Positions 11,691 through 37,867 of a DNA stretch of 64,000 bases are shown one piece after another. The DNA comes from Raillietiella orientalis (lineage: Eukaryota). The position numbers were made by a program, and so were the translations under genes. The stretch covers positions 3,410,001 to 3,474,000 of the forward strand of contig JAYWIR010000002.1 in the NCBI GenBank assembly GCA_036172245.1, in the 5' to 3' direction. The notes beneath the pieces are model-generated. The model saw nothing but the letters and a program-made list of their open reading frames with translations. It was not told the DNA's origin and made no database searches. The stretch's first letter is position 1, and every line of letters begins with the position of its first letter.

Positions 11691-11758
11691 TTGTAGAGAC
11701 GAGGGTGGTAGAGTCAGGCGATCGTGTGACGGCGGAGCCTCGGGTTACGCCCGCGGCG

Positions 11759-13166: not shown

Positions 13167-13176
13167 AAACCCCTTC

Positions 13177-16100: not shown

Positions 16101-16682
16101 CCTCCGGGGAGCTGCCGACCGCCACGCGGGAAAGGATCAAGTGATAGGATCAAGCTGTTGGCGATTGGCACGACGCTCTGGAGGAGTGACCTACCACCGG
16201 ACACCCAGGACAACCTCCTGATGTTCTATCATGGAGGAATCCTGAGCGGGTCCAGATTAAAATACTTCACTGGAAGACGGGATGACGAAGACTGCCAGGC
16301 ATGTGGAGACATGGACGCAAGACTCCACGTCTTGACATGTCCCACATTGCGCCGAGAGTGGCTGATCCTGAAAAGGATCATAGGAATGACCACCACCTCG
16401 GTGATGGGAATACTTGCCGGAACGTTTCAGGGAAATGCAAATGTTCCCTGTTACAACCCAATGGTAAGAACAACCATTGCTCTCTTCATCACCACTATAC
16501 TTGTGCGGTGGTGGAAGATGAGAAAAGCCAGGACAACCGCATCCCCGATGGAGATCCTGAAAGGACTAATCCAGAAGGAGATCGGCATCAGGAATTGTGG
16601 AAGACTCCAAGCCTGGATGTACCGTTACATCCTGAAAAGGATTGATGACGACTCCCGGACAAAATCGAGGAACCCACCCTGA
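13177..16682 (+). pseudogene. LINE ORF2 (APE endonuclease, reverse transcriptase, zinc knuckle), disrupted
   Basis: IASWNVNGL, DIVCLQETH, IVAGDLN, IDHVL, SDH (APE); WRPISILNSD, FADMEKAFDTIDH, GVRQGDSLSPMLF, LAYADDL (RT); CQACGDMDARLHVLTC (knuckle). Confidence 0.97.
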
Positions 16683-17088: not shown

Positions 17089-17095
17089 TTTATAA
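17089..17095 (+). promoter_or_regulatory. TATA-like box upstream of pepsin-fold gene A
   Basis: TTTATAA begins 48 nt before the ATG at 17137 and is conserved at 32900-32906 for gene B. Confidence 0.5.
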
Positions 17096-17136: not shown

Positions 17137-19954
17137 ATGGAACTCAGTGGACTCCTGCTCTTCTTTTGTGCGTGCTCGTGAGTGTCCCTCTTGGAGCAGA
17201 GCCCCTTTTCGCAGCTCCCGGGGTCTGCTCTCTCTTAGATCCATCCGTTTGTACATGAATGCGCAAACCGTCACCACCAGCACCACCTGCACCACCGCCT
17301 CCACCAGCAGCCCGGAGACGAGAACGCCCACCAATTCCTACGAGGTGCCACTGCGTTACTACCAGGCGAGTTGTTGCGGCGATCGCGAACGGCTCCGGAC
17401 GGGCAGTTACTCTTCCAGAAGCAATTCTTCCACACCTCGATGACCGTCGGCACACCGCCCCAGAAACTCACTGTCAAGTTCGACACGACGACAGACGCTC
17501 TCTACCTGCTTTCCTCCGACTGCAGGAGCGAGTATTGCAGTGAGTGACAGCACGCGGGAAGCGGCCGCCGTCGGCGACAGTGCTGTTCACTCTCCCCCCC
17601 CCCCTTTCTCAGAAACGCTCCCTTCATACAACAGCGACCACTCAAATACTAAGATCTTCACCAGCCTCTACGGAAGCCACGTGCTCCTTAACGAGACTCT
17701 CGCCGGCGCCCTCCTGCTGGACTCCACGGAGCTGGTGCGTAGCCGACGGACCGTTCCCCCGGCATCCTGGGCTAAACGCAATCATTTCTGAGCAGTTCTC
17801 ACCGTCCCCTGACAACGCGCGCCACGACAAATCCCCCATCCGGATATACGAGTACGTGCTACCGTACATCCTGAATCCTCTCCCATACGGACTCCTGAAA
17901 TATTCAGTCGGCCAAGCGCTGTACGGCATCGACAAGCCGGCGTTGAGGATGCTGGCGAAGGCGCTGGACACGGAGCCCATCCTACATCTGGAATTCGACC
18001 CGTAACCGCAAGGGGCGAGGGTGGACGAAAAGACATCGCCCTCCCCCTTCCCCTACCTTCCAGGTGGCACGACAAGGCGAAGATCGTCGTGGGAGAGAAC
18101 CTCAATGACATCCAGAAGTGCGAGTTCGAGGAGAACCGGCTGAGAGACCCCGCATCCAAATTCTACAAAATGAAGATCTTCAAGTAAGGCGAGCTCTTCC
18201 GCACGTGCGTTTCGAGGACAGCGCAGTGAGCGTCCCTCTTTGCGCTCTTGGTCTTTTCGCTTGCCCGTCACGCGCGGTCCAGGCGCCCTAGGACCTGCAG
18301 GGAACGGTTGCTCCCTCTATGCGGGAAGTACTGGACCGACACTCATGCATCTGCTGGAAGAAGCTCCCAAGAGTCGGAGGCGAGTTGTCGGGAACGTTCG
18401 TTTTTTTTTTTCCTTGCCATCCGAGCAACTCTGCGCGCCCTCCATCTGCAGTAGAATTCCCCTGTCGCAAGGCACCCGGATTCACCGTTCATTCCAGAGT
18501 GCTCATTAATGACCAAGAGCTGGCAATCAACAAGACGATGGTCAACCAGACGGAGGTCATCAACCAGTTGGTGGTAATCGACTCCGTCAACCCTATCTTG
18601 AAGGTTTCGAGCGAGTTCATAGATATGATCGCCGCAGCCACGAGAGCCCGGAGGGACTCCGCATTCGGCGGTCTGCTGACGGTGAGGCGACCTGACCGTC
18701 TGACTGACCAGTCCCGCCACCTGTCTCCCGGCAGATAGAGTGTCAGAACCTACCGGAAACCTACCAGATGCCCGTGATAACCTACTGGCTGAACCCCTAC
18801 TACTTCGTGAATCTTCGCCCCGACGACTACATCCTCAAAGTACGTGGAGTCGCCGTTCGATCACGCGGAACCGTCCAGACAGACGTCTTCGCGCGCAACC
18901 TGCGTGGATCAGCGAGGAGCGCGCACGCCAAGTGCACCGCTCCTCTGCTGCTCGGCTTGAACATCGCCGCCCCACGCGCGTAGGAAAAGCCGACAGCCAG
19001 CTGCCCCGGGCAGGACGCGGATTACGCAGCTTCCCGCTGCCGCCGCACGGTTCTGGAGCCCGCTCCGAGGGACACATGCAGCAGCTTTCATGTCCGCTTC
19101 TCCTTGAGCAATGGCGTGCACTCTACGTGGACCTGAACATCCCCCCCTCTCCGTCGTCTCCTTCACCGCCGTTTCCTTCCGTTAGCATTCTCTTCTGCCA
19201 GCTCGTCCATTTCCCGGGAACCGCTATTTGCTGTGAGGGGAGCGTTTCCCGGGAGGCGCTGGACTTCCATCAGTCCTGCTGGCGAAGGAGTCGCGGAGCT
19301 TAAGAATATCCGTGCGTCTTTTCAGTCATCCTCCGAGGCAAAACAGTGACCGGGTTTTGCTAGAGCGGAGGGGAGAAGGGAAAGGCGTGGCGTGGACAGG
19401 AGCTGCTGCTATCTACCTTGGTATGCCGGCGCGCTTGCGAATGCACCGTTTCCCGCGTGTTCCCTGCGGAACTGGCTGCGCCCTTCCGCACGCCGCTGTC
19501 CGACTCGTCCGGGGAGCGCCCAAGTGCACGCCGCGTCGGGCTTCGTTTTCTAAGGGGGCTCGCTCTTTCGCAGGCGCTCCCTTTGCGCTACCCACTTGCT
19601 TGCTTAGCCATTCGTGCTGTTCACTGATCACCTTTGAGCTCTCCAGCTTTTCCTCCTAACCACCCCTAACAACCCGCTGTGAAGCAAACAAATACGCCGC
19701 GCTTCTACACATCGCCGCACGATGGCAGCACCTCGCAGAGGGGAACACGGCTCGAGAGCTGCTCACGAGCCTCTTTTCAGTTCCCGCACAACGACAGAAC
19801 TGTGTGCGCATTCATGTTCTCTGACAACATGAAGACCTCGTTCTCCGAGGGGTGGAGTCTGTCCCTTCCGATCCTCAAGCGGCTGCACGTGAAGATCGAC
19901 CTGGACCGGTCTTCCGTGTTCTTCAAAACCCGGAGGGAGTGGAAGCCCTCTTGA
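17137..19954 (+). CDS. Secreted pepsin-fold (A1 family) protein with non-canonical catalytic motifs, gene A, 9 exons, 399 aa
   Basis: Manual model: 17137-17177, 17239-17365, 17419-17539, 17613-17734, 17796-18001, 18064-18183, 18498-18681, 18735-18839, 19781-19954 (1200 nt, open frame). Hydrophobic N-terminus MELSGLLLFFCAC; motifs TVGTPPQKLTVKFDTTTDALYL, VVIDSVNPIL, MPVITYWL...LRPDDYILK, WSLSLPILKRLHVKIDLDRSSVFF. Intron 2 is GC-AG. AATAAA at 19982. Confidence 0.9.
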
Positions 19955-20789
19955 AAGGCATCGAAGACCGCCGAAGCGGTCAATAAAGCTCTTCCTGGAG
20001 CCCGGGTGGTCGTTCCGGAGGGACCGCGAAGACGGGCGCCTCCCTCCGTCTGGAGCTATGCGCCCTCCGTCGCTCGCGCAGGCGTCCAGAGTGGTAGGGT
20101 AGGCGCCGACCGAACTGCGTGGCTGGAGCCGGGAGCACCCTGGCCGAGAGGGAAGCGACGCAGTGGACCCTGCAGAAGCTACCGACTCACTCGCCGTCGC
20201 CGCCACAGGATCGGAAGTGGCTCTCTTCCTGCTCCAGCGATCTTCCCAGGTCCCAGAGGGAAGTCGAACCCTCAAGGACGCGGCAGTCGCGCCGGGGTAC
20301 TCCCCTGCCACCGGGGGTCGTTCTCGCTACACCTCCCATGGGCTAGTTCCCCTTCTACACTCTCCATCTCTGGGAACAACCCCCGGTTTTGCTGTCCGGA
20401 GGAGGAACGGTAGCTCCCGCTGTAACTTCGAAACGCATCGCGAAGACGAGACGGTAGGCTGGGCCGGGAAGTCGCAGACTGCTCATGCGGAAACGCACCC
20501 GTGGCCAGAAAGAAGAGGTAGAAGGGGAAGACGTCCAACGATCTATTCGGCAAGGGTCCTCCTTATTTCCAACAGGAGACTGGTCCGACGCCGTTAAAGC
20601 ACCAACGGAAGAGCGAAGGCAACAGGGTGATCAAGCAGGGATCTTTTCCACAGATGCCATGCATCGTGACCCCGCGCTGGCCGGCTGGATCCGCCAACCC
20701 CTTTCCTCCTTGGAACCTCTGCGAACTCACCCGAGACCCCTCGGCCTTCAAGAGGATCCCCTCCGAGGAGATTCCCTGGAGGAGGAGGA

Positions 20790-21250
20790 TACTCAGAAAG
20801 CAACGGGAGCTCTGCCACTACAGAATCGTTATCTTGCCAACAGGGATTCCACCACCCGGAAGCCGTCCGCAGCTCGACGTCCTGTTCGACACGACCGGTA
20901 CCACCGGTGCCTGCGCTGCGGCTTCTTCTCTCTGCAGCTGCCATCTTGGCGATTACGCTTCATCTTGCTGTTGTCCTCTTGCTGTTTCCGCTGCCGTAAC
21001 TTCTGGCTTTGGGAGAGGAAGCAGGTCAAAAGTCCCGGTCAAGATCGCTCCCTGGACCCATGAGTCGCGAGTCCTCTTCGTCCTTGCGATAATCAGGCAG
21101 CTGCAGCGCTCACGTCCTCGCTTCCGCTTCGGCCAGCCCTCACACGGCCTCTCGAGGCTTCCCGAAACCTCTCGTGCGGCAGTCCTTGCTGCTTCCGACC
21201 AGTCCCTGCGCGGGGCCTATGTGAAGTCGGCGTGGCTCAAAAAGACCCAA
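20790..21250 (+). pseudogene. Decayed pepsin-fold paralogue fragment
   Basis: PQLDVLFDTTGTTG matches the exon 3 motif, and DQSLRGAYVKSAWL resembles NETLAGALLLDSTEL. No clean exon model could be built. Confidence 0.55.
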
Positions 21251-22054
21251 CGGTGCGGAAACTCCCGTCTTGAAGACGGTGACCCCTTGCGCCCGCGAGG
21301 GCAGGCATGGCTGAAAAGACACGAGCGACTGCCAGAAGCAGTCTGGCTCCTGATCCGGTTCGGCGACAAAGCACAAGATGGCAGAACAAACTGGCATCGG
21401 CGTCGTTTATCTGTCCCTTACGAGGTGGCGCGGCGTGCAGGCATTTTTCGAACCACCACACGCGCCTTTCCCGTCCCCACTCCCCTGTTCCAGAACAGCA
21501 AATGCGAACCCACGTTGCAGCCCTGCTCCGAAGAGACCCGCCCGCAGCTGCTGCCCCGCGCGCACGCGCGCCCGTGTGTGCAAACTCGGGAAACCCTGTT
21601 TCCGTGACGCAAGAAACCGCGCTGTCCGCAGGTGAGGAAAAGGTGAGCGGAGTTCGTATACACCGTACACACACACTCGTGCAGACCTCATCCTGCATGT
21701 TCGTTCCCCCCTGCCGCATCACGCGTGTGCCTGCTGCACTTGTGTGCAAGAGTGAACGCACTCGTAGTGACGGGATCGAGTTCCGCACACGGGGAAGCTG
21801 CGGGTAACCAAGATGTCCGGAGACGGCACCGCGGACCTCCGACCTGGCTGGAGCAGAGGGGAGGAGGGAAGGGGGGAATTTCCGGTGTCCCTTCGACTCC
21901 GCAGCGTTGGAGACACGACGTCATTTCCGCTAAGCTCATCGCGAACTTTGCGAAAAACACATCTCCAGCAGCTCGCGCCCCGTCCTGAAAGATCGCCCGA
22001 TCCAGGAGGCGAAGCAGCTGCTCGGACCTTCGACGGTGCCTGAATCCATCTTGC

Positions 22055-22088
22055 ATCGCTTCTCTGCCTTTTGGCTAAGATCAAAGTG
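22055..22088 (+). pseudogene. U2: 3'-truncated U2 snRNA retro-fragment with 14-bp target-site duplication
   Basis: ATCGCTTCTCTGCCTTTTGGCTAAGATCAAAGTG corresponds to U2 nt 1-34. It is flanked by tgaatccatcttgc at 22041-22054 and 22087-22100. Confidence 0.93.
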
Positions 22089-25000
22089 AATCCATCTTGC
22101 GCGCACCCCAAAGCTTGCCATCAACGGTCGTCCGGGAACTAGCCGGAGACGTCGAAAGCACGTCTGCTTGCCAACGCCTTTGTCGCAGAGCAGCCGGGGA
22201 CTGAAAGCAGCGTCTGGGCAAATCCCCACGCAACTTCCGTGGTGCTTGCGAGCGAACCGTCTCGCCCTGACCGGCCGTTCTGCGGGGAACCCGTCCGGTG
22301 CACCCAACTGTCCCGCCCGAGGACCCTGCCGACGCGGCTGAATCAGCTGGCGAGTTCGAGAGCCCGCGCCTCTGGACTTCCCCTCTCCTCCATGCCCGTC
22401 TCGCGCGCAGAATGCCGCCTCCAGCCCGGGGTCTCGGACGAGGAAGAAGCCTCGAACCCACGAGCGAAATCGGAGCACCACTCGTTTGTAGACCGTAACC
22501 GCCACCTCGCCACGAAAGCGTCGAACGAACTTCACACTCCAGGAAAGCCGATGAATGGAGCTTGCGCTCGCGAAACAAAGCCTTTGTCCGCTATCCGAGG
22601 AGGCAGCGAGGCCAAAGACGGATTGCTGGACTCGTTTTGCCGTGCCGTGCCTCCTTTCGAAGAAGATTCGGCCAACAGCATTCTGCGTGAATGCGTTGAG
22701 CTCTTTCGGACCGCACGCTCCGTTGCTAAGGGGGAGGCAGTCTGGTCCAATTTATACATTTCCGGCTGTGGGCAGCACGTTGCTAGCCGTTGCTAGCGAA
22801 CGCCTCTATATATAGCCCCCGGGAGCATCCCTTCCGAGCTGCGCACACCATTGTTAGCCGCAGCGTCTGCACGCGGTTCGTGCTCTTGTTACGCGGATGA
22901 ATGAAGAGCGTCGTCTCATCTTGGAGGCAATTCTATCTGTCTGAGCAAACGAACGTTCCTCGGTAAAATGCATCAACGAAGTGTTTGTCCACGAGCTTTA
23001 TCGAGCTCGCTGCATTCACAAACAAAAGGCGGGCGATGCGTGCCGCACACGTTCCACGGTTTCGCTCGAAATGCGAACGGAACTGCGGAGAGGAAGAAGG
23101 AAGGCAAGAGACGTTCGCAGAGGTGCTCAGGGAACCCTTGAATCTGGAATGTGGCGCCATCAGGGGACGGATGTATGAACCGTGCAGCGCAGACACTACA
23201 CGACGTGTCCTCCGAGGGAGCAGTGGATGGATATTCGTTAACGGCACAGGTACGCAGTGCCGTGCGTTCTGTTTCAAGGGCGCGATCGACGCCCACACGG
23301 ATCGACTCCACTTCCCTTATTCCTTCTGGACGCTCCCGGATAGGCAGCACGTGCGTCCTGGCTGTGGCGACCTGCGGCGGGCGTGTCCCCGATGAATGTT
23401 CTCACGACACCGGACACTGGAGCTGTCTTCACGTGCCCTGCCCGCGTGCGAGGGATCCTGGCTCCTTGGGCGGCACCCCGAAGCCGCCCTTCGAGTCTCA
23501 GCGACGCAACCAACCGGTTCTCTCGCTATCCTTCGTCAACGAAACGAGGAGCCATTTCCCCTTCCCCTCTCCGTGCTTCCCCCGACGCTGCTGCCGCGTT
23601 CCCCACGGCGAGGACAGGCGACGTCGAGGCGAGTTCCGTTCTGGAGCACCCCCGCCACGTCCGGTCGGAAGCGTCCCATAGGAATTGGCACGCTGGAGGC
23701 CGCCGGACCGCGCATTCCCTGCCGTCGCTTCCCTGATGAGGCGACAGATCCCGGACGACCAGGCCGCTCGGTAGCGAGGTGGGGTCATTTCGCACGCGCC
23801 GACCGAGGGCATGCGGCAACGACTCTTCTCCCACTCTCGCCAAGTCCTCAGGGCACTCGCCCACGGAAGGCGCCCCCTCCCGGTTGCCAGGCGAGATCCA
23901 ATGGCGCCGAAATGCGGAGAAGAGGCCGCGTCCTCCGGCTTTCCAGAGGCTTGCCCGGACTTGGAAATTTCGCCTGGAGCAGCGCCGCCTGCGAGGTCGT
24001 CTCGCGTGCCCGCAGCTCCCGTCGAGGGAGTCTCCGGCAGGAATTTGCGGCTCCGAAGGCGGGCAGCGCCGGAGAAAGGCGAGAGCGAAGGGCGCCGGAT
24101 GGGAGCTGGCGGCGACTCGAGAGAGGACTCGTGATCACGGGCTGCTGCTGCCGGAGCACCCGGTGTGGCAGTTCGCAGGGGTGGTATCCACGTCCTTCCG
24201 GGGGTCGGGGAGGAAGCGGCCACCATCCCGGTAGGGGGGAAGCGTCGATCGAAAGGGGGTGGGAAGGAGGAGGAAGGGAAGGGGAGGGGAGGAGGGAAAA
24301 CGGGCGAAGCGCCAACTCATACGAACGCGCAGCATGACTCGCGTCCCGCATCGCCTTCGGCATCCTCTCGGCTGGTCATCGTGCGCGCGCACGCGTGCTG
24401 ACGCCTTTCCCGCGACACACCAAGTGCACGCCGGGCACCGACCGTCACCTCGACCCGAGTGTGCGACAGTTGCCCTCCGCGGAGCACACGGCTCCGTCGT
24501 TTTCTTCCCCGCGCGTCAGGCCCCTTTCCCGCTTCGGAGTGCGAAAGAAGAGCGCTCCACGATGCGGTCTTCCACGCGGCCAAGGGCCCGGATACGATTG
24601 ACGAAGGTAATCAAACAGACAGAGGTAGGACGGGGACGGGCCCTCGAGGTGCATCCCTCCCGAAGGTGCGGCAGAAGGAGGAAAGAAATGGAGGGAGACA
24701 GAGGCCACCGAGGTCTATATACGTACAATCGCACCAATTCTCCAGGGCGCGCGCCTCATGTCGCAGAGGAATCTCCTGGTGACGGCGGACGCCATCTCGA
24801 TCTCGCCGACGCAGTGGTGCTTCTCCAAGACAGGAGCCGCCGCGATGCTCGTGGGAAGGACAAGAGCGTGGGGAGAATCGAACAGCACGGGAGGGGGGGT
24901 GAGAGGGAGGGAAGCTGGAGACATCGCCCACACTGTCAACGGGAATCAAACCAACTCGAACATGAAGGGTGTGCAGCGCGCGCCCTACCATGACGGACGC

Positions 25001-25399
25001 TTCCCGCGCTCTCGAAGCTAGCGTGGGCCGCAGTCCAGGTAATCGGAAGCTAAAAATAGACGGCAACAATGAGTGAATGTTTGATCGATTAAACCGCTTT
25101 TTGCCATCTGGTTCGAGTTGTGGGTGGGATGCCTGTCGGAATGAAACTCCGTACCATTCCCAGGTTTGTGTCCTCCTCGAGTGGATTGCGGCCAGTTGTG
25201 CGGATGCAGGCTGAACAACACGGGACCCGTTCCAGGTCGGGAAAAGTGTAAATAACTGCTTGCGGGCCCACGTGAGAGACTGAGAAAATCGATGTTCAGG
25301 TTTCGGTCGAGCAGGTTTTTCGATGACGGCGAAGGCAAGGGCGGTGCTCTCAGCCGAACGGACGGCATCTGGCGTGCTCCCCTTCCCCCACCGTGCACC

Positions 25400-25900
25400 G
25401 ACACCCGTGGAGTCTCTCCTTCGCCGGGTTCCGCCGTTATCGCGAATGCCGGCCCAGCTCTTCAGGTCCTGTTCAAAGCCGTCCTGCCCAGCTTCGGAAT
25501 GAAGAGCGGAGCGGATAAAAACCCAGAGCTCCCGAAGGGAACCTCCGGCTGCGCGAACCTCCACTTGGAACGTCTTGGAAGCACGGCACAGATGGCTAAC
25601 AACGGCGAGCTCCGAAGGAGTGAAACGCAAACTCGGGTGCGAGCAAAGGACAGCCCGAGCACGACCTCTAAGTTTCCTGTGATCCAAATGAATAAGATCC
25701 AACGTCTCAAACACCAGCTTCGAGCGGTGGAGGAGGAGGAGAACAGGAAGTGTTCGGGATCGGCGTGTCTCCAGGAAACCACGGCGAAAATCGCACGCGG
25801 CTGCGAAGACCATCTCGACGAGCGGACGTGTGTCCTGTGCCTTCACGCACGCTCTCGACTGGGCCGGCAGGCAAACACTTCATTGCTGGAGTCCGAGCTC
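25400..25900 (-). mobile_element. Decayed LINE ORF2 C-terminus (duplicated at ~41179-41679)
   Basis: Across frames: VKAQDT (cf. PPDTQDN), GLRSRVRFSPWFPG (cf. GLLSRARLSHWTSG) and DPEHFLFSSSSTARSW (knuckle H...W spacing). Confidence 0.55.
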
Positions 25901-26669
25901 TCGAACAAACACGGAAGACTTGCCTGCGAGAACTGGGTGCATGGGCTTAGCTCAACGGGAGCGGATGACGCGAATTGATCCGGAGGGTAGTTTGAGTGCA
26001 AACACGCGACGGCATCCAGAAAACAACCAAGGGACCAGGAGGCAGCTGCGAGCAAGGAACGAGCCACGGAGCTCGTCCGTTCACGACGCATTTCGAAAGC
26101 TTCTTCTGAGAGAAGGTTAAACTCCGCGGTCTTTAGCAAGAAGTTCAAAAGTGTTGCGAAGTGTTGCTATGGAAAAGGAGCAGCAAAGAAAAGAAAAAAA
26201 AAAAAAAAAAAATGGGCGGGGGGGGGGGGGACTTAAATGAAAAGGGTTACTTCACGAAGATTCAAGTGGAGGACGATGCACCGCATCTAGGATTGCAGAG
26301 GAAGGAAAGTCTCGATGCGCAACCCATGGAAGAGGCATCGCTCAGAGGATGCCTGAGCTTGCAGCCTAGGGTTGACCAAAGAACATGTTGAGCCACTCGA
26401 TCCCGACCGCCACTTCGCCTGTAGTCAGCTGGGCTGGAGGGATAGCTGGCTGGAATATGGCTGCAGTCTCACCTGGTCACGCCGGGGCGCTTCTTGTACG
26501 GAAAAATACAAAGTCTAACAGTAGGTCATTTCATGATGGTGCGTTGGGACAGTGCAGGGCCGCGCGTTCCGCAGGAGTCCCCAGCTCGGAGCCGTCGCCG
26601 GAAGAGGTCTGCGCAAAGAAACTGGGGGGAGGGGCGAAAAACAACAACAGCAGCAAAAACAAATCAATA

Positions 26670-27135
26670 GACATTAAATAAATAAGTGCTGAAGTGTTTA
26701 AGGGGAAGACCCGCCCGGCGGAGAAGTCCTTTCTTTCGGGCGCTCCTCGAAGGGAGCGGTGTGCTTCTTGCACACACCGATGAGGTGTCATCAATCCACC
26801 AGCTCCTTGGTACGAGATGCAGGGTCACCGCTGAGGGATGGAGCGACGTCTCCTTTGCACAACCGGAGGGGAACTACCCATTCCTTATTTCTGTTTCCTG
26901 GAAAGGCCCCAGAGGGTCGACTTTTAATCTCGGCCACTCATCGGTTACATCCGGTTTGAACCGCTATTATCGTTGCCGCACCCGAATGCAGGCCAACCAG
27001 CGCCATCTGGAGGGAGAAGCTCGAACCCACGACGCACCCATTTCTCTGGCGTCGATCCTTCCCCGAGTGGGATTCGAACCGGCGACGCCCGGTGTCTCGA
27101 GCGCAGACGAAAACCACGTCGCCTCCGATGTGGAG
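26670..27135 (-). mobile_element. Candidate tRNA-derived SINE
   Basis: The minus strand has an A-box-like ggaggcgacgtggtt (27126-27112) and B-box GGTTCGAATCCC (27080-27069) at tRNA-like spacing. The body contains hairpins and ends in cttatttattta. Confidence 0.5.
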
Positions 27136-27399
27136 AGGGCGGCGAGGGTGGAAGGGCGAGTCATCTGATGCTCTGCCCAGAGTCCCAGCCAGTCTTCTAC
27201 CTCCCTTCGACCTCGCACATTGTTTCCCATCTTCCAAGCGGGACATTGACTGTCCTGGAACTCCCCCAGGGACCACAGCGTCGCGGCAGAAGGGGCTCGC
27301 TGGATACACGGGTTTATCCACGGAGCAGTCCATCCATCATCCCCTTCGGTGGGCAGCGAGCGCAACCGGAGCGCCGCAGGCGTCGCGTTTCCTCCAGGC

Positions 27400-27800
27400 T
27401 CGAGCCGCTGATCCTCGCCAGCGCCTGAGATTCTTCCCGTCTCCAGACGCCACAGCTCGTCAGCGAGCAGGAGACCAGGCACCAAGGCAACGCGTGCCGA
27501 AGCAAGCGGCCGCCGCACCGCGCGCCTTCTTGGGCCAGTTGAGTCCCTCCGAGCCGGCTGCCCGCTCGGCCAGGATCAGGGCCGGAGCGCACCAGAGGGT
27601 GCTGCGGAACTTCCCCTCCCGGGCTGTCCTTCGGAACAGCTCCTTTCCAGAGTGGGAACTCACAGGAGTCCGTCTTCCCGGCGCGGGAATCCGCTCGCAG
27701 CTGGAAGGCGGGGAGCGGTCCCGTGCCGGTCGCACGAGGCGAAGCAGGTCAAGAAGGAAGGCGTTCCGACCGGCTTGAGCCGTGCGGGGCGCGTGCTGCG
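27400..27800 (-). mobile_element. Possible decayed LINE ORF2 C-terminus (duplicated at ~43179-43579)
   Basis: GRNAFLLDLL resembles QRNAILLAHW, and RVALVPGLLLADELWRLETGR resembles RTTIALFITTILVRWWKMRKAR. Confidence 0.4.
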
Positions 27801-30379
27801 CAACCATCTGGTCATCGGAGCCCGGCCCTCAGCGCGGGAAGGAGAGTCCACCCTTCTTCTGCCCCACTTGGCCTTTCCCCGCAAGTGCAACACGCGCCGC
27901 CTTCCCCCAGCCCGTCCGTCGTCGGTGGGTCCTAAGCCCATTCCTGCTCGGGCTCTCGTCCGAAGCTCCACCGTTTTGTGCAAGCCGCTCCGACGCCCCA
28001 ACGCCACAGATGACCGCTTCCGCTTACAGCAGGAGGAGGACCCCTCTCCCAAGGCATGACGAAGGGAGGGCGGCGGCTTCCCGAGGACCTCCGACGCGCC
28101 ACTGCCACGGGGCGCGGGAGCGGCCAGCTCTCGTCTTCAGGAGGGCGACACGCGCCGCACGAAGTGTGCGGGCGCGCGTCGCCCGCAAGGAGCACTGCAG
28201 GAAGAAAAGCGGAGGAAAGCTCCACGACGGAAACCCTCCACCGGACCCGGGACCGATCGCTCCCCGCGTTGCCCGGGCGACCGCTTGGTCCTTTACGCCT
28301 CCAGGGCAGCCTCGCGTAAAGCGACGAGGCACGGCTGGTGGATTGGGAAGCTTCCGGAATGGCGAACAGGTTCCGCAGCGGCCCGTCGGACGCTGGGCTC
28401 ACGCAAGCACGAAGATGGCGCGAGAGGGCTCAGCAGAAGGGATGCCGTCGCGCCTCGGTCCTGACCCCTTCGCGGTGAGAAGATCGGGGGTGCCCAGATG
28501 CAGGCGACGACAAAGCAGCAGCATCCGGAAGGGCTGCCCGCACTACGGGACCGGCGGAGGAATTCCAGGAAGTCCCTTTCGGGAGCACCCTTACCCTACA
28601 GCGGGAGATCTCGAGGAGCACCGACGTCCCTACTTTAGGAAAACCTGGAAGGAACGGTGGGATAAAAGGGGAGTTCCAAAATTACGACCTGCCCTCGGGC
28701 TTTTTTTCCGCGAAAGCATCCCTCCGTGGGAACCATCTCCGGACATCTCCTCCGAGGGACCGGGAAGCGTTCAGGAGAGGGGAGTGAAAAACTCAGGCGA
28801 GTCCCTGCGGTCGGCTTTCTTCCCATCCGTCCTGGAGCCACCCCGTTGAAGACCGCTCCTTGGCGCGGTAGGGGCCCTTCATAGGATGGGAACACCCGGG
28901 GGTCCCCGAGGGGCCGGTGATTTAACCTCTGGGTTCGTGAGGAACCCTCCCTCGTGCGCGGGAGCCGCTCCTGGCTCGGAGATCCCGGACGGATCTCCCT
29001 CTCCTTGGGACCGCTGCCGCCGACTCAGTGCAACCCTTCACCCCCCCCCCCTCCTTCGTCCATCCTGGCGCGGGACCTTCCTCCTTCCGGGAAGCGGGGG
29101 ACTCTCCTGGTGGAGGAGAGGGTGGAGCCCGAGGCGGGCGGGAGGTGTCTACGTGTTTCTCCGGGAGTGCGGGAGTGCGGCCCGCGGCAACTCCGCGACT
29201 CCCCTCGGAGGACCTGCCGGCAGGCCACCTGCTTGCGCCCAGAGGCGACCGCCCAACACGTTGCTCTGCTGTGCCCTTGCCGCGCACGCGAGGAAACGTA
29301 GCCGGGAGCGTCTCTCGGCGTAGCGTCCGCTAGGACAAGGGACGCTCCGCGACCGGGACGCCGGAGAGCGGATCTTCCAGCTGAGGAACGTGGAAGAACG
29401 GGACAAAGTGAACCGGGATGCGCGCGCCCTGCCACGTCAAAGAGCGGGAAAGGGGACGATGAGGCGAAGCGGCTGCCGCACCGGGAACCGCGCGTCCGAG
29501 ACGCCAGGAAGCCGCCAGGTGACCAGGACGGATCGGTCTTGCGCCCTTCGCTATGAGACGGGGCCCGAGAACCTGGCACTTCCTTGGAAAGCGGCCCCGG
29601 GGCCACAGCGTCCGAGTGCAAAGGGGGAGGGGGGCAATCCGGTAGGGCTCTTCGGGCAGAGCAGCAAAGGAAGCAAACGGTGGAGGAAGGAGGAAGAGCA
29701 AAGTCGGAGGCAGCAACAAGTCACCAGCCGACAACTCCGAAACGGTGGAGCCTCATCGAAAAGTGGCATTGGTGCAGAGTGGACACCCTCCTTGGCGTCT
29801 TCCACCCCAACCCCAGGCGAGCCCACGGCATGCATCTCGTGAAGTCGTGCCGACTTCTTTGCAACCCGAGGTGTCGTGGGACTCATGTGTAGAGCAAGCG
29901 GGAGCCACAAGATGCCCACGGAAAGAAATAACCCTAGAGTCAGGCGCTTCCGGTTAAGGGACAGCAGAATCTGCGGCAAAGATAGAAGGGAAACAGTTCC
30001 GTCGAAGGTGGTAGCGAGATCGGTTGGAAACCAAACTGCCCGCCTAAGTGCTCTCGCTCTGCAGCCTCCTTCCGACGGGTGCACAGGAATGCGTCTTCGT
30101 GATGTTTCAGCAACCACCTGCAAGTTTTGTTCGCATTCCGTTTGCACACGCTGACTGTACACCAAACCACGGATTGTTTGCGTGTCTGTGTTTCTTAGGA
30201 TTTGGTCCGAGGTTTGCACGCAGCTCGCCAAGCACAGGCACCTGCCCGTGAAAACGCCGGAATCGGGAAGCGTGAGCACCAACCCTCGTTTCCAAAGTGA
30301 GCGGAGTAGCTTGCATGACCCTCTGAGTCTGCACCACTGGCGCTGCAGGTACTCGGGGTTGCGGACTCGAGAGAGTGAT

Positions 30380-31026
30380 GCGACCTGATGCAAAAGAGCC
30401 TGGAGAACATTTACACACCGTCCTTATACTGCAGCTCTCCTTGTCGTTGTCCTCCTAGCACCAGTCCAGAAACCAACCGACCGCATAAACACACCTCAGG
30501 ATGAAAGCTAGTATCGGCAAACATGGTACCTGAGTATGACTCCAACCCAAGGACGCATCTAGTGCTGCAGAAGACGAATAAGATGATCGTCCTTGAAGTT
30601 TCCCGTACGACCGACAACGCGGAAGAGGTATTCAGCCTCACAGGAACGCAAAAAGAAGACAACTGCCAGGAAATCGCCTTCCTTTTGAGAAATGAAAGAA
30701 TTCAGGCCAAAATCTAAGCGATCATGTTCGGCGCGCTAGCAGCCTGGGACTTGAGAAATGATGGGGTGATACTGAGTATCTCGAAGCAGCATGCGGAAAC
30801 AATGAGGCATCTGATGCCTACTAAACAGCGAGGATGTCTTCTGCACCCAACGATGGGGACATCCTCCTGCAGACGGCATTAAGCGACCAGTTGTCGAAGC
30901 GGCTGCGGATGAAGAGTCCGCATTAAATCCATGAAAACTGAAGCCGCTGTCGAGAAATTTAGAAATACGGGGGAGCTATACAAGTTATGTGCTTGTACAG
31001 AACGTAAGCAAATTAATAAATAAAAA
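30380..31026 (+). mobile_element. Decayed 3' end of a Utopia/NeSL-type RLE non-LTR retrotransposon
   Basis: KLVSANMVPEYDSNPRTHLVLQKTNKMIVLEVSRTTDNAEEVF...QKEDNCQEIA...I*AIMFGALAAWDLRND...MRHLM fits the RPDLV...IIDV...FDN...KxxKY...GALGSWDPxND pattern. A 3' UTR with AATAAATAAAAA directly abuts U2 sequence. Confidence 0.85.
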
Positions 31027-31064
31027 TATGTTCTAATCAGCTAAATGCCTGATACGCCACCTAT
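31027..31064 (+). pseudogene. U2: U2 snRNA internal fragment (about nt 39-76), the downstream half of the target site
   Basis: tatgttctaatcagctaaatgcctgatacgccacctat versus U2 tctgttcttatcagtttaatatctgatacgtcctctat. Stem IIa (ATCAG-8 nt-CTGAT) is intact. No Sm site follows. Confidence 0.8.
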
Positions 31065-32947
31065 CTGCAGACATCAACGACCTTTGGGAAGAAACCTCCT
31101 GTACTGCTCCCAGGCACAGACAACGCACCAAGCTACCGCAATTCAATCTTGCACGCGCAAACTGGAAGAAACGGGAAATTTCCACGAGGAAAAAAATACA
31201 GCCACCTGGCCGCTAAAACAACGCCTCCTCTGATGGGCTCCGGAAAAACAGCAACTTTTAGGGGATCGTCTGGATTCCTCCTCAGGAAGGCATCACCCTT
31301 ATCGGCGAAAGTGACGGCGTCCATTCAACCTAAGAGGGGGGGGTCTCCTAAAGAATTCTTCCGTTCCTTTCGCTCCGTACGCACGTCCTTAAGCCTCTCG
31401 ACCTTGGATTGTCCTCATTTTGCAGCCCGCTCCTCCCCTTCCGCACTTGAGTCTCCATCCGCTTATGCAGGCACCACACCTCTGGGTCACAAGAAGGTCG
31501 GACCTCTTTGTGTTCCCGGAGGGAAGTCAGCCGCATCTTCCGGAACTCAGTCTCTCACTCAAAGTGCTTCCATGAGCCGGTCTCCCTTCGCACCACTCTG
31601 TTCATGCCGTCCCTCGAGCGTTGCCAGGGCATGCTTGAAGGGTTCGGAGGTCTGGAGACCGCCAATACCGGCTTTCTGCGTGCTGCCATGTGCCGAGGAC
31701 ACACTCGGTTGATGGGAGGAGGATGGCGCCTGACTTCGTGTCGAAAGGGACTTCGAGCTGCTGGGATGGCGTGACTGACGGTCATCAGTGACCCGAACGG
31801 GGCTCCTTCGGAACCGGGCCTTTCGGAATCGCGGCAGTTCGCCCGACGGCATCTCGGCGGCGACTCGTTGGAGTCAGCGGGACTCCCCTCTCCCGCGTCG
31901 CCTTGCGACCAACTCTGTCATGGTGGTCAGGATTCAGGGCACGCGCACGACCGAAACACCTCGAGAAACGGAAGCCAAGGGAGACGCGGGTGAGCTGTCC
32001 TGCCGGGGCACTCTTTCTTTCGCAGGCGGACTCCGCACGACCATCGCCGAGAAAGCAGGAATTCCGTGCAGGAGAGCGTCGAACCTCCCCGTCGCGTTTC
32101 AAGCTGTCCTTTTCCTCAGAAGGACGCAAAAGGAGTGCCCACGAGTGAAAAAGGACCAGCAGATCGCGGAGAAGAGCGCACGAGAGACGGCGCGCTGGAA
32201 GCAGAGGCGGTGCGAGAGCGCCGACGGCGCGTCCATCTGTCATAGACGCAAGAAATCGCTCTCACGTGCCGCGCAGGAAATCAACAACTCCTTGGTACGA
32301 CCCCACCTTCGATGGCACTCTTCCGTGTGCATCGGAAAAAAGTCGCTTTCTAAGCTCTCCAGATGAGGGAGCCTCCAGATTGGGGAAGCCGACACGTGAC
32401 GTCTTCGTCCGCCAGATTTCGACGCTGCCGGACCAGGGGTGGTGGCGAAGGGGGGAAAGCAGATTTTCTTCCCAACAGCCTGCTGGCGGTCCTTCGCGGC
32501 AGGGTTGATGGAAGGCAATCTCAGTTTCTCTCTTCGTTCCGGTACGAAAGGCCTCGTACCGAACGGAGAGAGACGTGGCAAGAGGTCGACCAGAGAGGCA
32601 GGAACGTGGCCTGCAATTTTCCGAAACCTGGAAAGATCTGGCGCTAAGCAAAGAGGGTTTCAAATTACTCCCAAGAAACCGACGGCAGCCGGTGAAGCTC
32701 CGATGGAGTTTCCGGAAGAAACGGCGAGTCCACGGAACGCGGGTGATGGGGAGGGTTAGCGAAAGCTGTGTTTTTCAAATTTGACGTCACAACATGCCTG
32801 CCTTCGAGCACAGCCAATCCTCTCCGACACCGCCGAGCGACTCGAGAGCACCTAAGGACACCCAAGTGTCGGAGATGCAGATGAGCCCGGATGGAGACGT
32901 TTATAACCGGGACGATTCCTCGTGTCACGAAAATCGTCGGCAGCAAG

Positions 32948-35733
32948 ATGGAACTCAGTGGACTCCTGCTCTTCTTCTGTGCGTGCTCGTGAGTGTCCCT
33001 CTTGGAGCAGAGCCCCTTTTCGCAGCTCCCGGGGTCTGCTCTCTCTTAGATCCATCCGTTTGTACATGAATGCGCAAACCGTCACCACCAGCACCACCTG
33101 CACCACCGCCTCCACCAGCAGCCCGGAGACGAGAACGCCCACCAATTCCTACGAGGTGCCGCTGCGTTACTACCAGGCGAGTTGTTGCGGCGATCGCGAA
33201 CGGCTCCGGACGGGCAATTGCTCTTCCAGATGCAGTTCCTTTACTCCTCCATGACCGTCGGCACTCCGCCACAGAACTTCGACACCATGTTCGATACGAC
33301 GGCCGGCGCCATTTATCTACCTTCCTCCGACTGCATCAACCCGTACTGCAGTCAGCGGCAGCACGTGGGAAGCCAGAGACAGTGACGCTTCCGTTTCTTC
33401 CCCCTCCCCGTTTTCAGGCAGGCTCGTCGTGTACTACAAAAGCCAGTCGAAGACCGCCATCTCCAGCAGCCTGAATGGAAGTCACGTGCTCCTTAACGAG
33501 ACTCTCGCCGGCGCCCTCCTGCTGGACTCCACGGAGCTGGTGCGTAGCCGACGGACCGTTTCCCCGGCATCCTGGGCTAAACGCAATCATTTCTGAGCAG
33601 TTCTCACCGTCCCCTGACAACTCGCGCCACGACAAATCCCCCATCCGGATATACGAGTACGTGCTCCCGTACATCGTGAATCCTCCCCCATACGGACTAT
33701 TGAGATATTCCACCGTGCAGGCCTTATACGGCATCGACAAGCCGGCGTTGAGGATGCTGGCGAAGGCACTCGACACGGAGCCCATCCTGCACCTGGAACT
33801 TGACCCGTTAGAGCACGGGACGAGGGCGGACGAAAAGACATCGCCCTCCCCCTTCCCTTACCTTCCAGGTGGCACGACAAGGCGAAGATCGTCGTGGGAG
33901 AGAACCTCAATGACATCCAGAAGTGCGAGTTCGAGGAGAACCGGCTGAGAGACTCCGCGTCCAACTTCTACAAAATGAAGATCTTCAAGTAAGGCGAGCT
34001 CTTCCGCACGTGCGTTTCGGAGACAGCTCCGTGAGCGTCCCTCTTTGCGCTCTTGGTCTTTTCCCTTGTCCGTTACGCGCGGTCCGGGCGCCCTAGGACC
34101 TGGAGGGAACGGTTGCTCCCTCTATGCGGAAAGTCCTGGACCGACACCCATGCATTTGCGGGAAGGAGAAGCTTCCAGGGGTCGGAGACAAATTGTCGGG
34201 AAGTTAGTTTTTTTTTTTTTTTTCCTTGCCATCCGAGCATCTCGGAGAGCCCTCTACCCGAGAAAGACTTCCTTTGGTGCAAGGCTCCAGGCTCCCCTCC
34301 TCTTTCCAGAGTGCTCATCAACGGCCAGCAGGTGACCACGAAACAGACGATCGTCATCGACTCCGCCAGCCCCATCTTGAAGGTTTCGAGCGAGTTCATA
34401 GATATGATCGCCGCAGCCACGAGAGCCCGGAGGGACTCCGCATTCGGCGGTCTGCTGACGGTGAGGCGACCTGACCGTCTGACTGACCAGTCCCGCCACC
34501 TGTCTCCCGGCAGATAGAGTGTCAGAACCTACCGGAAACCTACCAGATGCCCGTGATAACCTACTGGCTGAACCCCTACTACTTCGTGAATCTTCGCCCC
34601 GACGACTACATCCTCAAAGTACGTGGAGTCGCCGTTCGATCACGCGGAACCGTCCAGACAGACGTCTTCGCGCGCAACCTGCGTGGATCAGCGAGGAGCG
34701 CGCACGCCAAGTGCACCGCTCCTCTGCTGCTCGGCTTGAACATCGCCGCCCCACGCGCGTAGGAAAAGCCGACAGCCAGCTGCCCCGGGCAGGACGCGGA
34801 TTACGCAGCTTCCCGCTGCCGCCGCACGGTTCTGGAGCCCGCTCCGAGGGACACATGCAGCAGCTTTCATGTCCGCTTCTCCTTGAGCAATGGCGTGCAC
34901 TCTACGTGGACCTGAACATCCCCCCCTCTCCGTCGTCTCCTTCACCGCCGTTTCCTTCCGTTAGCATTCTCTTCTGCCAGCTCGTCCATTTCCCGGGAAC
35001 CGCGATTTGCTGTGAGGGGAGCGTTTCCCGGGAGGCGCTGGACTTCCATCAGTCCTGCTGGCGAAGGAGTCGCGGAGCTTAAGAATATCCGTGCGTCTTT
35101 TCAGTCATCCTCCGAGGCAAAACAGTGACCGGGTTTTGCTAGAGCGGAGGGGAGAAGGGAAAGGCGTGGCGTGGACAGGAGCTGCTGCTATCTACCTTGG
35201 TATGCCGGCGCGCTTGCGAATGCACCGTTTCCCGCGTGTTCCCTGCGGAACTGGCTGCGCCCTTCCGCACGCCGCTGTCCGACTCGTCCGGGGAGCGCCC
35301 AAGTGCACGCCGCGTCGGGCTTCGTTTTCTAAGGGGGCTCGCTCTTTCGCAGGCGCTCCCTTTGCGCTACCCACTTGCTTGCTTAGCCATTCGTGCTGTT
35401 CACTGATCACCTTTGAGCTCTCCAGCTTTTCCTCCTAACCACCCCTAACAACCCGCTGTGAAGCAAACAAATACGCCGCGCTTCTACACATCGCCGCACG
35501 ATGGCAGCACCTCGCAGAGGGGAACACGGCTCGAGAGCTGCTCACGAGCCTCTTTTCAGGTCCCGCACAACGACAGAACTGTGTGCGCATTCATGTTCTC
35601 TGACAACATGAAGACCTCGTTCTCCGAGGGGTGGAGTCTGTCCCTTCCGATCCTCAAGCGGCTGCACGTGAAGATCGACCTGGACCGGTCTTCCGTGTTC
35701 TTCAAAACCCGGAGGGAGTGGAAGCCCTCTTGA
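32948..35733 (+). CDS. Secreted pepsin-fold (A1 family) protein with non-canonical catalytic motifs, gene B, 9 exons, 388 aa
   Basis: Manual model: 32948-32988, 33050-33176, 33230-33350, 33418-33539, 33601-33806, 33869-33988, 34310-34460, 34514-34618, 35560-35733 (1167 nt, open frame). Motifs MTVGTPPQNFDTMFDTTAGAIYLPSSDC and IVIDSASPIL. TATA-like box at 32900; AATAAA at 35761. Confidence 0.9.
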
Positions 35734-36568
35734 AAGGCATCGAAGACCGCCGAAGCGGTCAATAAAGCTCTTCCTGGAGCCCGGGTGGTCGTTCCGGAGG
35801 GACCGCGAAGACGGGCGCCTCCCTCCGTCTGGAGCTATGCGCCCTCCGTCGCTCGCGCAGGCGTCCAGAGTGGTAGGGTAGGCGCCGACCGAACTGCGTG
35901 GCTGGAGCCGGGAGCACCCTGGCCGAGAGGGAAGCGACGCAGTGGACCCTGCAGAAGCTACCGACTCACTCGCCGTCGCCGCCACAGGATCGGAAGTGGC
36001 TCTCTTCCTGCTCCAGCGATCTTCCCAGGTCCCAGAGGGAAGTCGAACCCTCAAGGACGCGGCAGTCGCGCCGGGGTACTCCCCTGCCACCGGGGGTCGT
36101 TCTCGCTACACCTCCCATGGGCTAGTTCCCCTTCTACACTCTCCATCTCTGGGAACAACCCCCGGTTTTGCTGTCCGGAGGAGGAACGGTAGCTCCCGCT
36201 GTAACTTCGAAACGCATCGCGAAGACGAGACGGTAGGCTGGGCCGGGAAGTCGCAGACTGCTCATGCGGAAACGCACCCGTGGCCAGAAAGAAGAGGTAG
36301 AAGGGGAAGACGTCCAACGATCTATTCGGCAAGGGTCCTCCTTATTTCCAACAGGAGACTGGTCCGACGCCGTTAAAGCACCAACGGAAGAGCGAAGGCA
36401 ACAGGGTGATCAAGCAGGGATCTTTTCCACAGATGCCATGCATCGTGACCCCGCGCTGGCCGGCTGGATCCGCCAACCCCTTTCCTCCTTGGAACCTCTG
36501 CGAACTCACCCGAGACCCCTCGGCCTTCAAGAGGATCCCCTCCGAGGAGATTCCCTGGAGGAGGAGGA

Positions 36569-37029
36569 TACTCAGAAAGCAACGGGAGCTCTGCCACTAC
36601 AGAATCGTTATCTTGCCAACAGGGATTCCACCACCCGGAAGCCGTCCGCAGCTCGACGTCCTGTTCGACACGACCGGTACCACCGGTGCCTGCGCTGCGG
36701 CTTCTTCTCTCTGCAGCTGCCATCTTGGCGATTACGCTTCATCTTGCTGTTGTCCTCTTGCTGTTTCCGCTGCCGTAACTTCTGGCTTTGGGAGAGGAAG
36801 CAGGTCAAAAGTCCCGGTCAAGATCGCTCCCTGGACCCATGAGTCGCGAGTCCTCTTCGTCCTTGCGATAATCAGGCAGCTGCAGCGCTCACGTCCTCGC
36901 TTCCGCTTCGGCCAGCCCTCACACGGCCTCTCGAGGCTTCCCGAAACCTCTCGTGCGGCAGTCCTTGCTGCTTCCGACCAGTCCCTGCGCGGGGCCTATG
37001 TGAAGTCGGCGTGGCTCAAAAAGACCCAA
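36569..37029 (+). pseudogene. Duplicate of the decayed pepsin-fold fragment
   Basis: Same LDVLFDTTG-containing sequence as 20790-21250. Confidence 0.55.
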
Positions 37030-37833
37030 CGGTGCGGAAACTCCCGTCTTGAAGACGGTGACCCCTTGCGCCCGCGAGGGCAGGCATGGCTGAAAAGACA
37101 CGAGCGACTGCCAGAAGCAGTCTGGCTCCTGATCCGGTTCGGCGACAAAGCACAAGATGGCAGAACAAACTGGCATCGGCGTCGTTTATCTGTCCCTTAC
37201 GAGGTGGCGCGGCGTGCAGGCATTTTTCGAACCACCACACGCGCCTTTCCCGTCCCCACTCCCCTGTTCCAGAACAGCAAATGCGAACCCACGTTGCAGC
37301 CCTGCTCCGAAGAGACCCGCCCGCAGCTGCTGCCCCGCGCGCACGCGCGCCCGTGTGTGCAAACTCGGGAAACCCTGTTTCCGTGACGCAAGAAACCGCG
37401 CTGTCCGCAGGTGAGGAAAAGGTGAGCGGAGTTCGTATACACCGTACACACACACTCGTGCAGACCTCATCCTGCATGTTCGTTCCCCCCTGCCGCATCA
37501 CGCGTGTGCCTGCTGCACTTGTGTGCAAGAGTGAACGCACTCGTAGTGACGGGATCGAGTTCCGCACACGGGGAAGCTGCGGGTAACCAAGATGTCCGGA
37601 GACGGCACCGCGGACCTCCGACCTGGCTGGAGCAGAGGGGAGGAGGGAAGGGGGGAATTTCCGGTGTCCCTTCGACTCCGCAGCGTTGGAGACACGACGT
37701 CATTTCCGCTAAGCTCATCGCGAACTTTGCGAAAAACACATCTCCAGCAGCTCGCGCCCCGTCCTGAAAGATCGCCCGATCCAGGAGGCGAAGCAGCTGC
37801 TCGGACCTTCGACGGTGCCTGAATCCATCTTGC

Positions 37834-37867
37834 ATCGCTTCTCTGCCTTTTGGCTAAGATCAAAGTG
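37834..37867 (+). pseudogene. U2: Duplicate of the TSD-flanked U2 5' fragment
   Basis: Identical to 22055-22088, with the same flanking repeats (37820-37833 and 37866-37879). Confidence 0.93.

What the first reader, a model, noticed from the sequence alone, without database searches (positions are those of the whole stretch)
17137..35733. Cluster of secreted pepsin-fold proteins that look catalytically disabled but are kept intact
Seen: two complete spliced ORFs (399 and 388 aa) with a hydrophobic N-terminus. Both catalytic Asp positions are kept, but the D[TS]G motifs read DTT and DSV/DSA. The flap YGxG appears replaced by HVLLNET, and the C-lobe WILGD reads WSLSLP. Established: active A1 proteases use two D[TS]G motifs, the flap Tyr and hydrophobic-hydrophobic-Gly psi-loop motifs; inactive members such as cockroach Bla g 2 (DST/DTS) exist. 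Inference: a lineage-specific family of secreted pseudo-proteases acting as binding proteins, inhibitors or effectors. It is not visible as a single ORF in the six-frame track.
Basis: partly seen in the sequence, partly recalled or inferred. Interest (0 to 1): 0.8.

Follow-up and report, generated by a model that had tools for sequence, protein, structure and literature searches.

The report
Arthropod expansion of disabled pepsin-like proteins
Two neighbouring genes encode pepsin-shaped proteins, probably secreted, that have lost most features needed to cut protein; they belong to a large family of such genes in this arthropod, much like the inactive pepsin relatives known from cockroaches and the cow placenta.

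Summary
Confirmed. Two nine-exon genes (17137-19954, 399 aa; 32948-35733, 388 aa) splice to open frames. All eight intron phases equal those of the genome's own cathepsin D-like gene. Both proteins are pepsin-family (A1) members (HMM E 1e-13 and 3e-18; profile match 99.8%). Both catalytic Asp remain, but Gly34 is Thr, Gly217 is Val/Ala, flap Tyr75 is Leu with a glycosylation sequon beside it, the C-lobe psi-loop Gly is Ser, and the propeptide is replaced by a Ser/Thr stalk. dN/dS between them is 0.39, and sister genes at about 30% identity are also intact. The 'cluster' is only two genes plus exon-3 relics, in a mosaic duplication whose last 11 kb are 99.9% identical. The larger picture is genome-wide: 24 of 29 modelled A1 genes lack a D[TS]G motif, and a 15-gene group mostly keeps both Asp with Thr34. 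The host is an arthropod. Exon-sized searches found no outside relatives. Best reading: secreted non-cutting binding proteins, an independent parallel to PAGs and Bla g 2. Expression, fold and activity are untested. The kind is known; the scale and the kept Asp pair are the new parts.

The parts
17137..19954 (+). Gene A, 399-aa degenerate A1 protein. Exons 17137-17177, 17239-17365, 17419-17539, 17613-17734, 17796-18001, 18064-18183, 18498-18681, 18735-18839, 19781-19954
   Evidence: open spliced frame, splice dinucleotides; HMM E 1.3e-13
32948..35733 (+). Gene B, 388-aa degenerate A1 protein. Exons 32948-32988, 33050-33176, 33230-33350, 33418-33539, 33601-33806, 33869-33988, 34310-34460, 34514-34618, 35560-35733
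   Evidence: (HMM E 3.3e-18)
17137..17177 (+). Exon 1 of A: short hydrophobic N-terminus, putative signal peptide; same 41-nt exon and 61-nt intron as in sister genes L063 and L080
   Evidence: best 8-residue hydropathy 2.98; sister models; no signal-peptide predictor available
17239..17365 (+). Exon 2 of A: Ser/Thr-rich stalk (15 of 23 residues) in place of the activation propeptide; ends at a GC donor
   Evidence: L080 has a GC donor at the same intron
17482..17493 (+). N-lobe Asp32 motif of A, D-T-T-T (Gly34 is Thr); in B at 33293, D-T-T-A
17678..17698 (+). Flap of A: Tyr75 is Leu, Gly76 is Leu, N-E-T sequon at the tip; identical in B (33483)
   Evidence: alignment only, no structure
18580..18591 (+). 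C-lobe Asp215 motif of A, D-S-V-N (Gly217 is Val); in B at 34359, D-S-A-S
19853..19870 (+). C-lobe psi-loop of A: Gly302 is Ser, Asp303 is Leu; identical in B (35632)
17091..17095 (+). TATA-like box 46 nt upstream of the start codon, in A and B; not found in L063 or L080
   Evidence: consensus match only
19982..19987 (+). AATAAA polyadenylation-like signal 28 nt after the stop; also after B, L063 and L080
16819..29665 (+). First copy of the duplicated segment; second copy 32612-45445. Mosaic divergence up to 18594, then 11 differences in about 11 kb
32612..45445 (+). Second copy of the duplicated segment
9724..9861 (-). Isolated relic of exon 3, no other exons found nearby
31670..31786 (-). 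Second isolated relic of exon 3
20869..20891 (+). Very short exon-3-like relic (22 of 23 nt match to the 9.8 kb relic), repeated at 36648-36670
   Evidence: E 2e-5
11660..16682 (+). Broken non-LTR retrotransposon (endonuclease and reverse transcriptase pieces) directly upstream of gene A only; left end approximate

Best explanation
A and B are genes for secreted pepsin-fold pseudo-proteases, derived from the ancestral nine-exon A1 gene that also gave this arthropod's cathepsin D. Shown: homology, motif loss, intact frames, constraint. Inferred mechanism: the bilobed cleft is kept as a binding site, not a cutting site. Side chains at positions 34 and 217 and the loss of flap Tyr75 disturb the catalytic water and its hydrogen-bond network. 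The two retained Asp serve as an acidic anchor for a peptide, protein loop or other basic ligand. No inhibitory propeptide is needed, so it was lost (sister genes) or became a probably O-glycosylated stalk (A, B). Duplication and patchy sequence exchange between copies vary the N-lobe wall of the cleft, as in PAGs.
For: Motif table: A and B fail both D[TS]G motifs, Tyr75, Trp39 and the second psi-loop Gly. [quoted passage not shown] PMC4890903 (passages) says a change at Gly34 alone is held to displace the catalytic water in PAG-1, which still binds pepstatin. dN/dS A vs B 0.39, bootstrap 0.26-0.61, close to 0.36 for the canonical-motif pair L052/L053. In a substitution-only neutral simulation about 3% of 2000 runs kept the frame open. 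Both outer disulfide pairs are kept. Sister genes L063 and L080 (29-32% identity, tree support 100/99) are intact, have the same exon plan and almost no propart.
Against: No ligand, tissue or expression evidence. No structure of the full protein was predicted, so cleft geometry rests on alignments at about 21% identity. Non-synonymous divergence in exons 3-7 (12%) is about the same as divergence of introns 3-6 (65 mismatches in about 500 nt), so the dN/dS value leans on high synonymous divergence in a mosaic region. A glycan at the flap tip could close the cleft. Keeping both Asp also fits residual catalysis.
Confidence: 0.58

Rival explanations
1. Atypical but active hydrolases: the Asp pair still works, with Thr34 and a Tyr-less flap giving narrow specificity or a non-peptide substrate.
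For: In the 15-gene group Asp32 is kept in 15 of 15, Asp215 in 14 of 15 and position 34 is Thr in 13 of 15. Among 9 divergent representatives Asp215 is one of only 14 of 315 columns conserved in at least 8. Known plant pseudo-enzymes lose the C-lobe Asp without changing the psi-loop fold, and HAP stays active despite a motif change (PMC11313796, passages).
Against: A and B carry at least five separate hallmark losses and no propeptide. Bla g 2 and PAGs are inactive with fewer changes. Asp32 conservation is inflated because loci were found with exon-3 and Pfam searches. The 15-gene group has only 88/84 support.
Confidence: 0.15
2. The cleft is closed or irrelevant. The proteins act through the outer surface, as enzyme inhibitors of the TAXI/EDGP type or as stable bulk proteins of cuticle, gland secretion or egg coat, like Lma-p54.
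For: Flap-tip sequon in both copies and a large flap residue change. Lma-p54 is described as an inactive epicuticular aspartic protease (PMC9541408, passages). Many A/B differences fall at residues 53-72 (approximate pepsin numbering).
Against: Retention of both Asp across 15-30% identity has no clear reason if the cleft is unused. The TAXI_N Pfam hit is below its cut-off.
Confidence: 0.17
3. The genes are decaying or silent duplicates whose frames happen to be open.
For: Exon-3 relics, a broken retrotransposon next to A and a recent duplication show a turbulent locus. Recent pairs elsewhere in the family have dN/dS of 0.71-0.91 with intervals spanning 1.
Against: All 16 splice junctions intact; the only length change in coding sequence is an in-frame 33-nt indel while introns 3 and 6 carry indels; dN/dS below 1; poly(A) signals shared with distant sisters.
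Confidence: 0.1

Closest known systems
Cathepsin D / pepsin family A1 (Pfam PF00026), including the genome's own cathepsin D-like gene (L050)
   Same: Nine exons with identical intron phases, both Asp, first psi-loop Gly, two disulfide pairs, end-to-end profile match.
   Different: 21-22% identity; Gly34, Gly217, Trp39, Tyr75, Gly76, Gly302 and Asp303 replaced; middle disulfide lost; propeptide replaced.
Pregnancy-associated glycoproteins (MEROPS A01.971 per PMC3116508)
   Same: Lineage-specific expansion of A1 genes (25 copies in cattle, 64 in hippopotamus per PMC13389413), with inactive members that have a Gly34 change and keep the cleft.
   Different: PAGs derive from mammalian pepsinogen F and stay much closer to pepsin; this family is in an arthropod and far more eroded.
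Cockroach Bla g 2, Per a 2, Lma-p54 (MEROPS A01.950 per PMC3116508)
   Same: Arthropod inactive A1 proteins with changes at both D[TS]G motifs and at Tyr75; function unknown.
   Different: Bla g 2 has Phe75, a zinc site and five disulfides; A and B have Leu75 and at most three mature disulfides. Bla g 2 was not named among the 49 PDB hits of exon 3.
TAXI, EDGP and basic 7S globulin (plant pepsin-fold inhibitors)
   Same: Pepsin fold reused without proteolysis.
   Different: Those lose the C-lobe Asp (PMC11313796); A and B keep both Asp and have an animal exon plan.

Membership tests
Peptidase family A1 (pepsin fold) | Sequence homology over both lobes | tested here: met
   Pfam Asp above cut-off on exon 3; HMM of canonical A1 on spliced proteins; hhalign 99.77%, 313 columns
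Peptidase family A1 (pepsin fold) | Shared gene structure with an animal A1 gene | tested here: met
   8 of 8 intron phases equal those of L050
Peptidase family A1 (pepsin fold) | Bilobed 3D fold | not testable with these tools
   folding accepts only contiguous translations, and no database record of the spliced protein was found
Active A1 protease | Two catalytic Asp | tested here: met
Active A1 protease | Two Asp-Thr/Ser-Gly motifs | tested here: not met
   DTT and DSV/DSA
Active A1 protease | Flap Tyr75 and Trp39 | tested here: not met
   Leu75, Tyr39; ungapped against L050 through the flap
Active A1 protease | Two hydrophobic-hydrophobic-Gly psi-loop motifs | tested here: not met
   first kept (L-Y-G; placement differs between MAFFT and hhalign), second is Ser
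Active A1 protease | Proteolytic activity | not testable with these tools
   needs an assay
Bla g 2 subfamily | Phe75, five disulfides | tested here: not met
   Leu75; six Cys beyond the signal region; features from PMC3116508 and PMC3137622
Bla g 2 subfamily | Zinc site; orthology by tree | not tested
Pregnancy-associated glycoproteins | Pepsinogen F descent, ungulate placenta | tested here: not met
   host genome has 14 arthropod cuticle-protein matches of 16 candidates
Secreted protein | Cleavable signal peptide, no membrane anchor | tested here: inconclusive
   hydrophobic exon 1 shared with sister genes, hydropathy only; the core is short

The most novel reading that the evidence does not exclude
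In this arthropod most of the A1 family has left canonical proteolysis, and one old branch (15 genes, 15-30% identity between subgroups) has fixed Thr at Gly34 while holding both catalytic Asp. This branch may be a new functional class that uses the Asp pair for something else: a different hydrolysis chemistry, or a variable repertoire of ligand-recognition proteins reshuffled by gene conversion.
Probability: 0.2. Interest if true: 0.72.

Novelty: new variant of a known kind. Interest (0 to 1): 0.42.

Why it matters
Inactive pepsin relatives (PAGs, Bla g 2, Lma-p54) have resisted functional explanation; the papers read call their function unresolved or unknown. This genome offers an independent, graded series in one animal: 5 canonical genes, a group keeping both Asp with Thr34, and a group that has lost the Asp too. 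That makes it possible to test which hallmark losses abolish cutting and what the retained Asp pair is for. The two window genes alone are one ordinary example of this series.

Tried and rejected
Outside relatives: exon 5 against 5.8 billion proteins gave 0 of 8 candidates. An exon-7 profile of A, B and L063 against 1.84 billion representatives gave 1 hit with no matched stretch, a tandem-repeat protein, rejected. An exon-3 profile of 9 family members gave 6 hits of 1670 candidates; 5 have canonical motifs and P0127 matches strongly only over exon 3, so none is an orthologue. The ESM Atlas gave no usable hit for exon 5 and only generic A1 clusters for exon 3. All were exon-sized queries, so absence is weak evidence.

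Expression: no RNA holder was listed; this is no evidence either way, and no reads could be laid.

An intronless paralogue to use as a folding proxy: the 373-aa frame at C8 proved to be an intron-containing gene.

A His-rich frame (17239-17547) reads through intron 2 into exon 3. Rejected as the main model: the spliced exon-2 end aligns with the canonical HMM and both sisters have an intron there. Intron retention is not excluded.

Positive selection between A and B: not supported; no exon has dN/dS above 1 (highest 0.84, exon 4).

Exon-3 relics as conversion donors: no clear shared tracts seen.

Nematode host: 0 matches of 3 candidates for the cuticle collagen domain, control silent; arthropod cuticle domains present.

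Automated exon 1-2 models for distant paralogues were unreliable except L063 and L080. Earlier scan notes were not available.

Literature: nine searches listed no paper on a comparable arthropod family; the library lacks most subscription papers. No supplements were opened.
Full report
Observation. Exons read from the sequence splice to a 399-aa product for gene A (17137-19954) and a 388-aa product for gene B (32948-35733). Each has nine exons, seven GT-AG introns and one GC-AG intron (intron 2). A TATA-like box lies 46 nt before each start codon and an AATAAA follows each stop. A genome-wide DNA search finds only these two copies (2 of 2 candidates).

Homology. Exon 3 passes the Pfam Asp cut-off in both genes; the four other exons tested for A and exon 7 of B give no A1 hit alone. 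Its best solved relatives are cathepsin D, cardosin and proteinase A (49 PDB sequences). An HMM from the near-full-length canonical A1 proteins among the 120 listed scores the spliced products at E 1.3e-13 and 3.3e-18, against a best of 4.0 bits for 500 shuffles. A profile of A, B and two sister genes aligns end to end with the canonical profile (99.77%, 313 columns, 21% identity). Independent support comes from gene structure: the genome's own cathepsin D-like gene (L050) has nine exons of similar length and the same eight intron phases.

Active site. Hallmarks of active A1 enzymes are two Asp-Thr/Ser-Gly motifs, two hydrophobic-hydrophobic-Gly psi-loop motifs, Tyr75 and Trp39 (PMC3116508, passages and section 6); Ser35 and Thr218 join the hydrogen-bond chain (PMC6221303, passages and section 16). 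A and B keep Asp32 and Asp215 and the first psi-loop Gly. Gly34 is Thr, Gly217 is Val or Ala, Trp39 is Tyr, Tyr75 and Gly76 are Leu, Gly302 is Ser and Asp303 is Leu (pepsin numbers transferred through L050 and partly recalled). An N-glycosylation sequon sits at the flap tip in both. Two of the three usual disulfides are kept. A stalk with 15 Ser/Thr in 23 residues replaces the propeptide. These assignments rest on alignments at low identity; the placement of the first psi-loop differs between MAFFT and hhalign.

Are they kept intact? A and B are 85% identical over exons 3-9, with dN/dS 0.39 (bootstrap 0.26-0.61; simple counting method, no transition correction). The canonical-motif pair L052/L053 gives 0.36. 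About 3% of 2000 neutral simulations kept one frame open at this divergence. The only coding length change is an in-frame 33-nt indel, while introns 3 and 6 carry indels. Against this, non-synonymous divergence in exons 3-7 (12%) is similar to that of the short introns there (about 13%), and three recent pairs elsewhere in the family have dN/dS 0.71-0.91 with wide intervals. The stronger argument is depth: sister genes L063 and L080 on another contig are 29-32% identical, group with A and B at 100/99, have open frames, the same 41-nt first exon and 61-nt first intron, a hydrophobic N-terminus and almost no propart.

Local history. The genes lie in a 12.9-kb duplication (16819-29665 and 32612-45445). 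Up to 18594 the copies are a mosaic of identical tracts (longest 183 nt; 0 of 300 permutations reach it) and diverged tracts. From 18595 on they differ at 11 sites in about 11 kb. This fits old paralogues with repeated gene conversion and one recent long overwrite, which makes one gene a chimera. It also fits two alleles assembled in tandem; reads are needed to decide. A broken non-LTR retrotransposon lies upstream of A. Exon-3 relics lie at 9.8 and 31.7 kb on the minus strand, with a very short one at 20.9 and 36.7 kb.

Genome-wide family. Searches with exon 3 (17 matches of 24 candidates) and Pfam Asp (43 of 73) led to loci that I fetched and modelled for exons 3-9 with my own phase-constrained script. 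Three models were dropped as incomplete (L067, L071, L077). Of the 29 kept, 5 have both D[TS]G motifs and Tyr75; 24 lack at least one D[TS]G motif. The count is a lower bound, the distant models are unverified, and near-identical pairs such as L058/L078 may be haplotype copies. A group of 15, containing A and B, has only 88/84 support and long branches. In it Asp32 is kept in 15 of 15, Asp215 in 14 of 15, and position 34 is Thr in 13 of 15. Among 9 divergent representatives Asp215 is one of 14 of 315 columns conserved in at least 8. Asp32 figures are biased by how the loci were found. Of the 8 other degenerate representatives listed, 4 keep Asp32 and 2 keep Asp215. The host is an arthropod (14 cuticle-protein matches of 16 candidates); its way of life is unknown, so nothing here supports or excludes a parasite-effector role.

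Outside relatives. Three exon-sized protein searches and two Atlas look-ups found no orthologue. This is weak evidence of lineage restriction, since even the host's cathepsin D exon has no listed match above 75% identity.

Mechanism. Most likely (0.58) these are secreted non-cutting binding proteins. A change at Gly34 alone is held to displace the catalytic water in PAG-1, which still binds pepstatin (PMC4890903, passages). Tyr75 tolerates only Asn or Phe in a tested fungal enzyme. Bla g 2 is inactive through catalytic-site changes (PMC3137622, passages). A and B carry more such changes and have no propeptide to hold an enzyme in check. The retained Asp pair would then anchor a ligand. That step is inference. 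Rivals: function through the outer surface or as a bulk secretion protein (0.17), atypical catalysis (0.15), decay (0.10). The atypical-catalysis case draws on PMC11313796 (passages): plant pseudo-enzymes drop the C-lobe Asp without changing the fold, so keeping it needs a reason.

Comparison and novelty. The proteins are members of family A1 and fail the test for active A1 enzymes. They work, on this reading, like PAGs or Bla g 2, but are not members of either group. PAG expansions reach 25-64 copies (PMC13389413, passages). Inactive arthropod A1 proteins are known as Bla g 2, Per a 2 and Lma-p54, with unknown function (PMC9541408, passages). PMC5736985 notes an A1 expansion in a bug; a term search of it found no mention of inactive members. 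Nine searches listed no comparable arthropod family, within a library that lacks most subscription papers.

Verdict. This is a new variant of a known kind: an independent, large expansion of pepsin-fold pseudo-proteases, with one branch that keeps the Asp pair. Interest 0.42. Fold, expression, activity and the reality of the tandem arrangement remain open.

Noticed in passing
window 63624-63710 (+): mir-184 microRNA precursor above the Rfam gathering score.
   Followed up: no
window 22045-22100 (+), copy near 37830: A 35-45 nt element with at least 38 further matches across many contigs (40 of 121 candidates scored); possibly part of a short mobile element.
   Followed up: partly
window 11660-16682 (+); 3138-3735 and 11093-11691: Broken non-LTR retrotransposon, and a 599-nt inverted repeat pair (95%) carrying a zf-RVT piece.
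   Followed up: partly
window 10829-11085, 29252-29508, 45032-45288: A 257-nt repeat (94%) close to the right end of the duplicated segment; it may mark the breakpoint.
   Followed up: no
L063 1-929 and 3181-4109: A perfect 929-nt inverted duplication containing exon 9 flanks the sister gene L063; a recent event or an assembly artefact.
   Followed up: no
G000 contig C1, loci L068, L069, L076, L077 and L057, L058, L078: Two recently amplified subfamilies of degenerate A1 genes, 91-100% identical within the pairs compared, with DST/DTG or DTT/DAG motifs.
   Followed up: partly
L066, L070, L072, L073, L074: A1 paralogues that have lost Asp32 and mostly Asp215 yet keep the exon plan.
   Followed up: partly
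P0127 (database protein, 451 aa, 42 member sequences): An apparently unrelated A1 protein with a C-terminal hydrophobic segment and DTT/DSS motifs, suggesting that Thr34 arises independently elsewhere.
   Followed up: partly
window 17239-17547 (+), and 33050-33385: A second, His-rich open frame over exon 2 runs through intron 2 into exon 3 in both copies; the two intron-2 differences between A and B are silent in that frame.
   Followed up: partly
A1 loci across G000: GC at third codon positions ranges from 0.26 to 0.85 among paralogues, a strongly heterogeneous genome.
   Followed up: no
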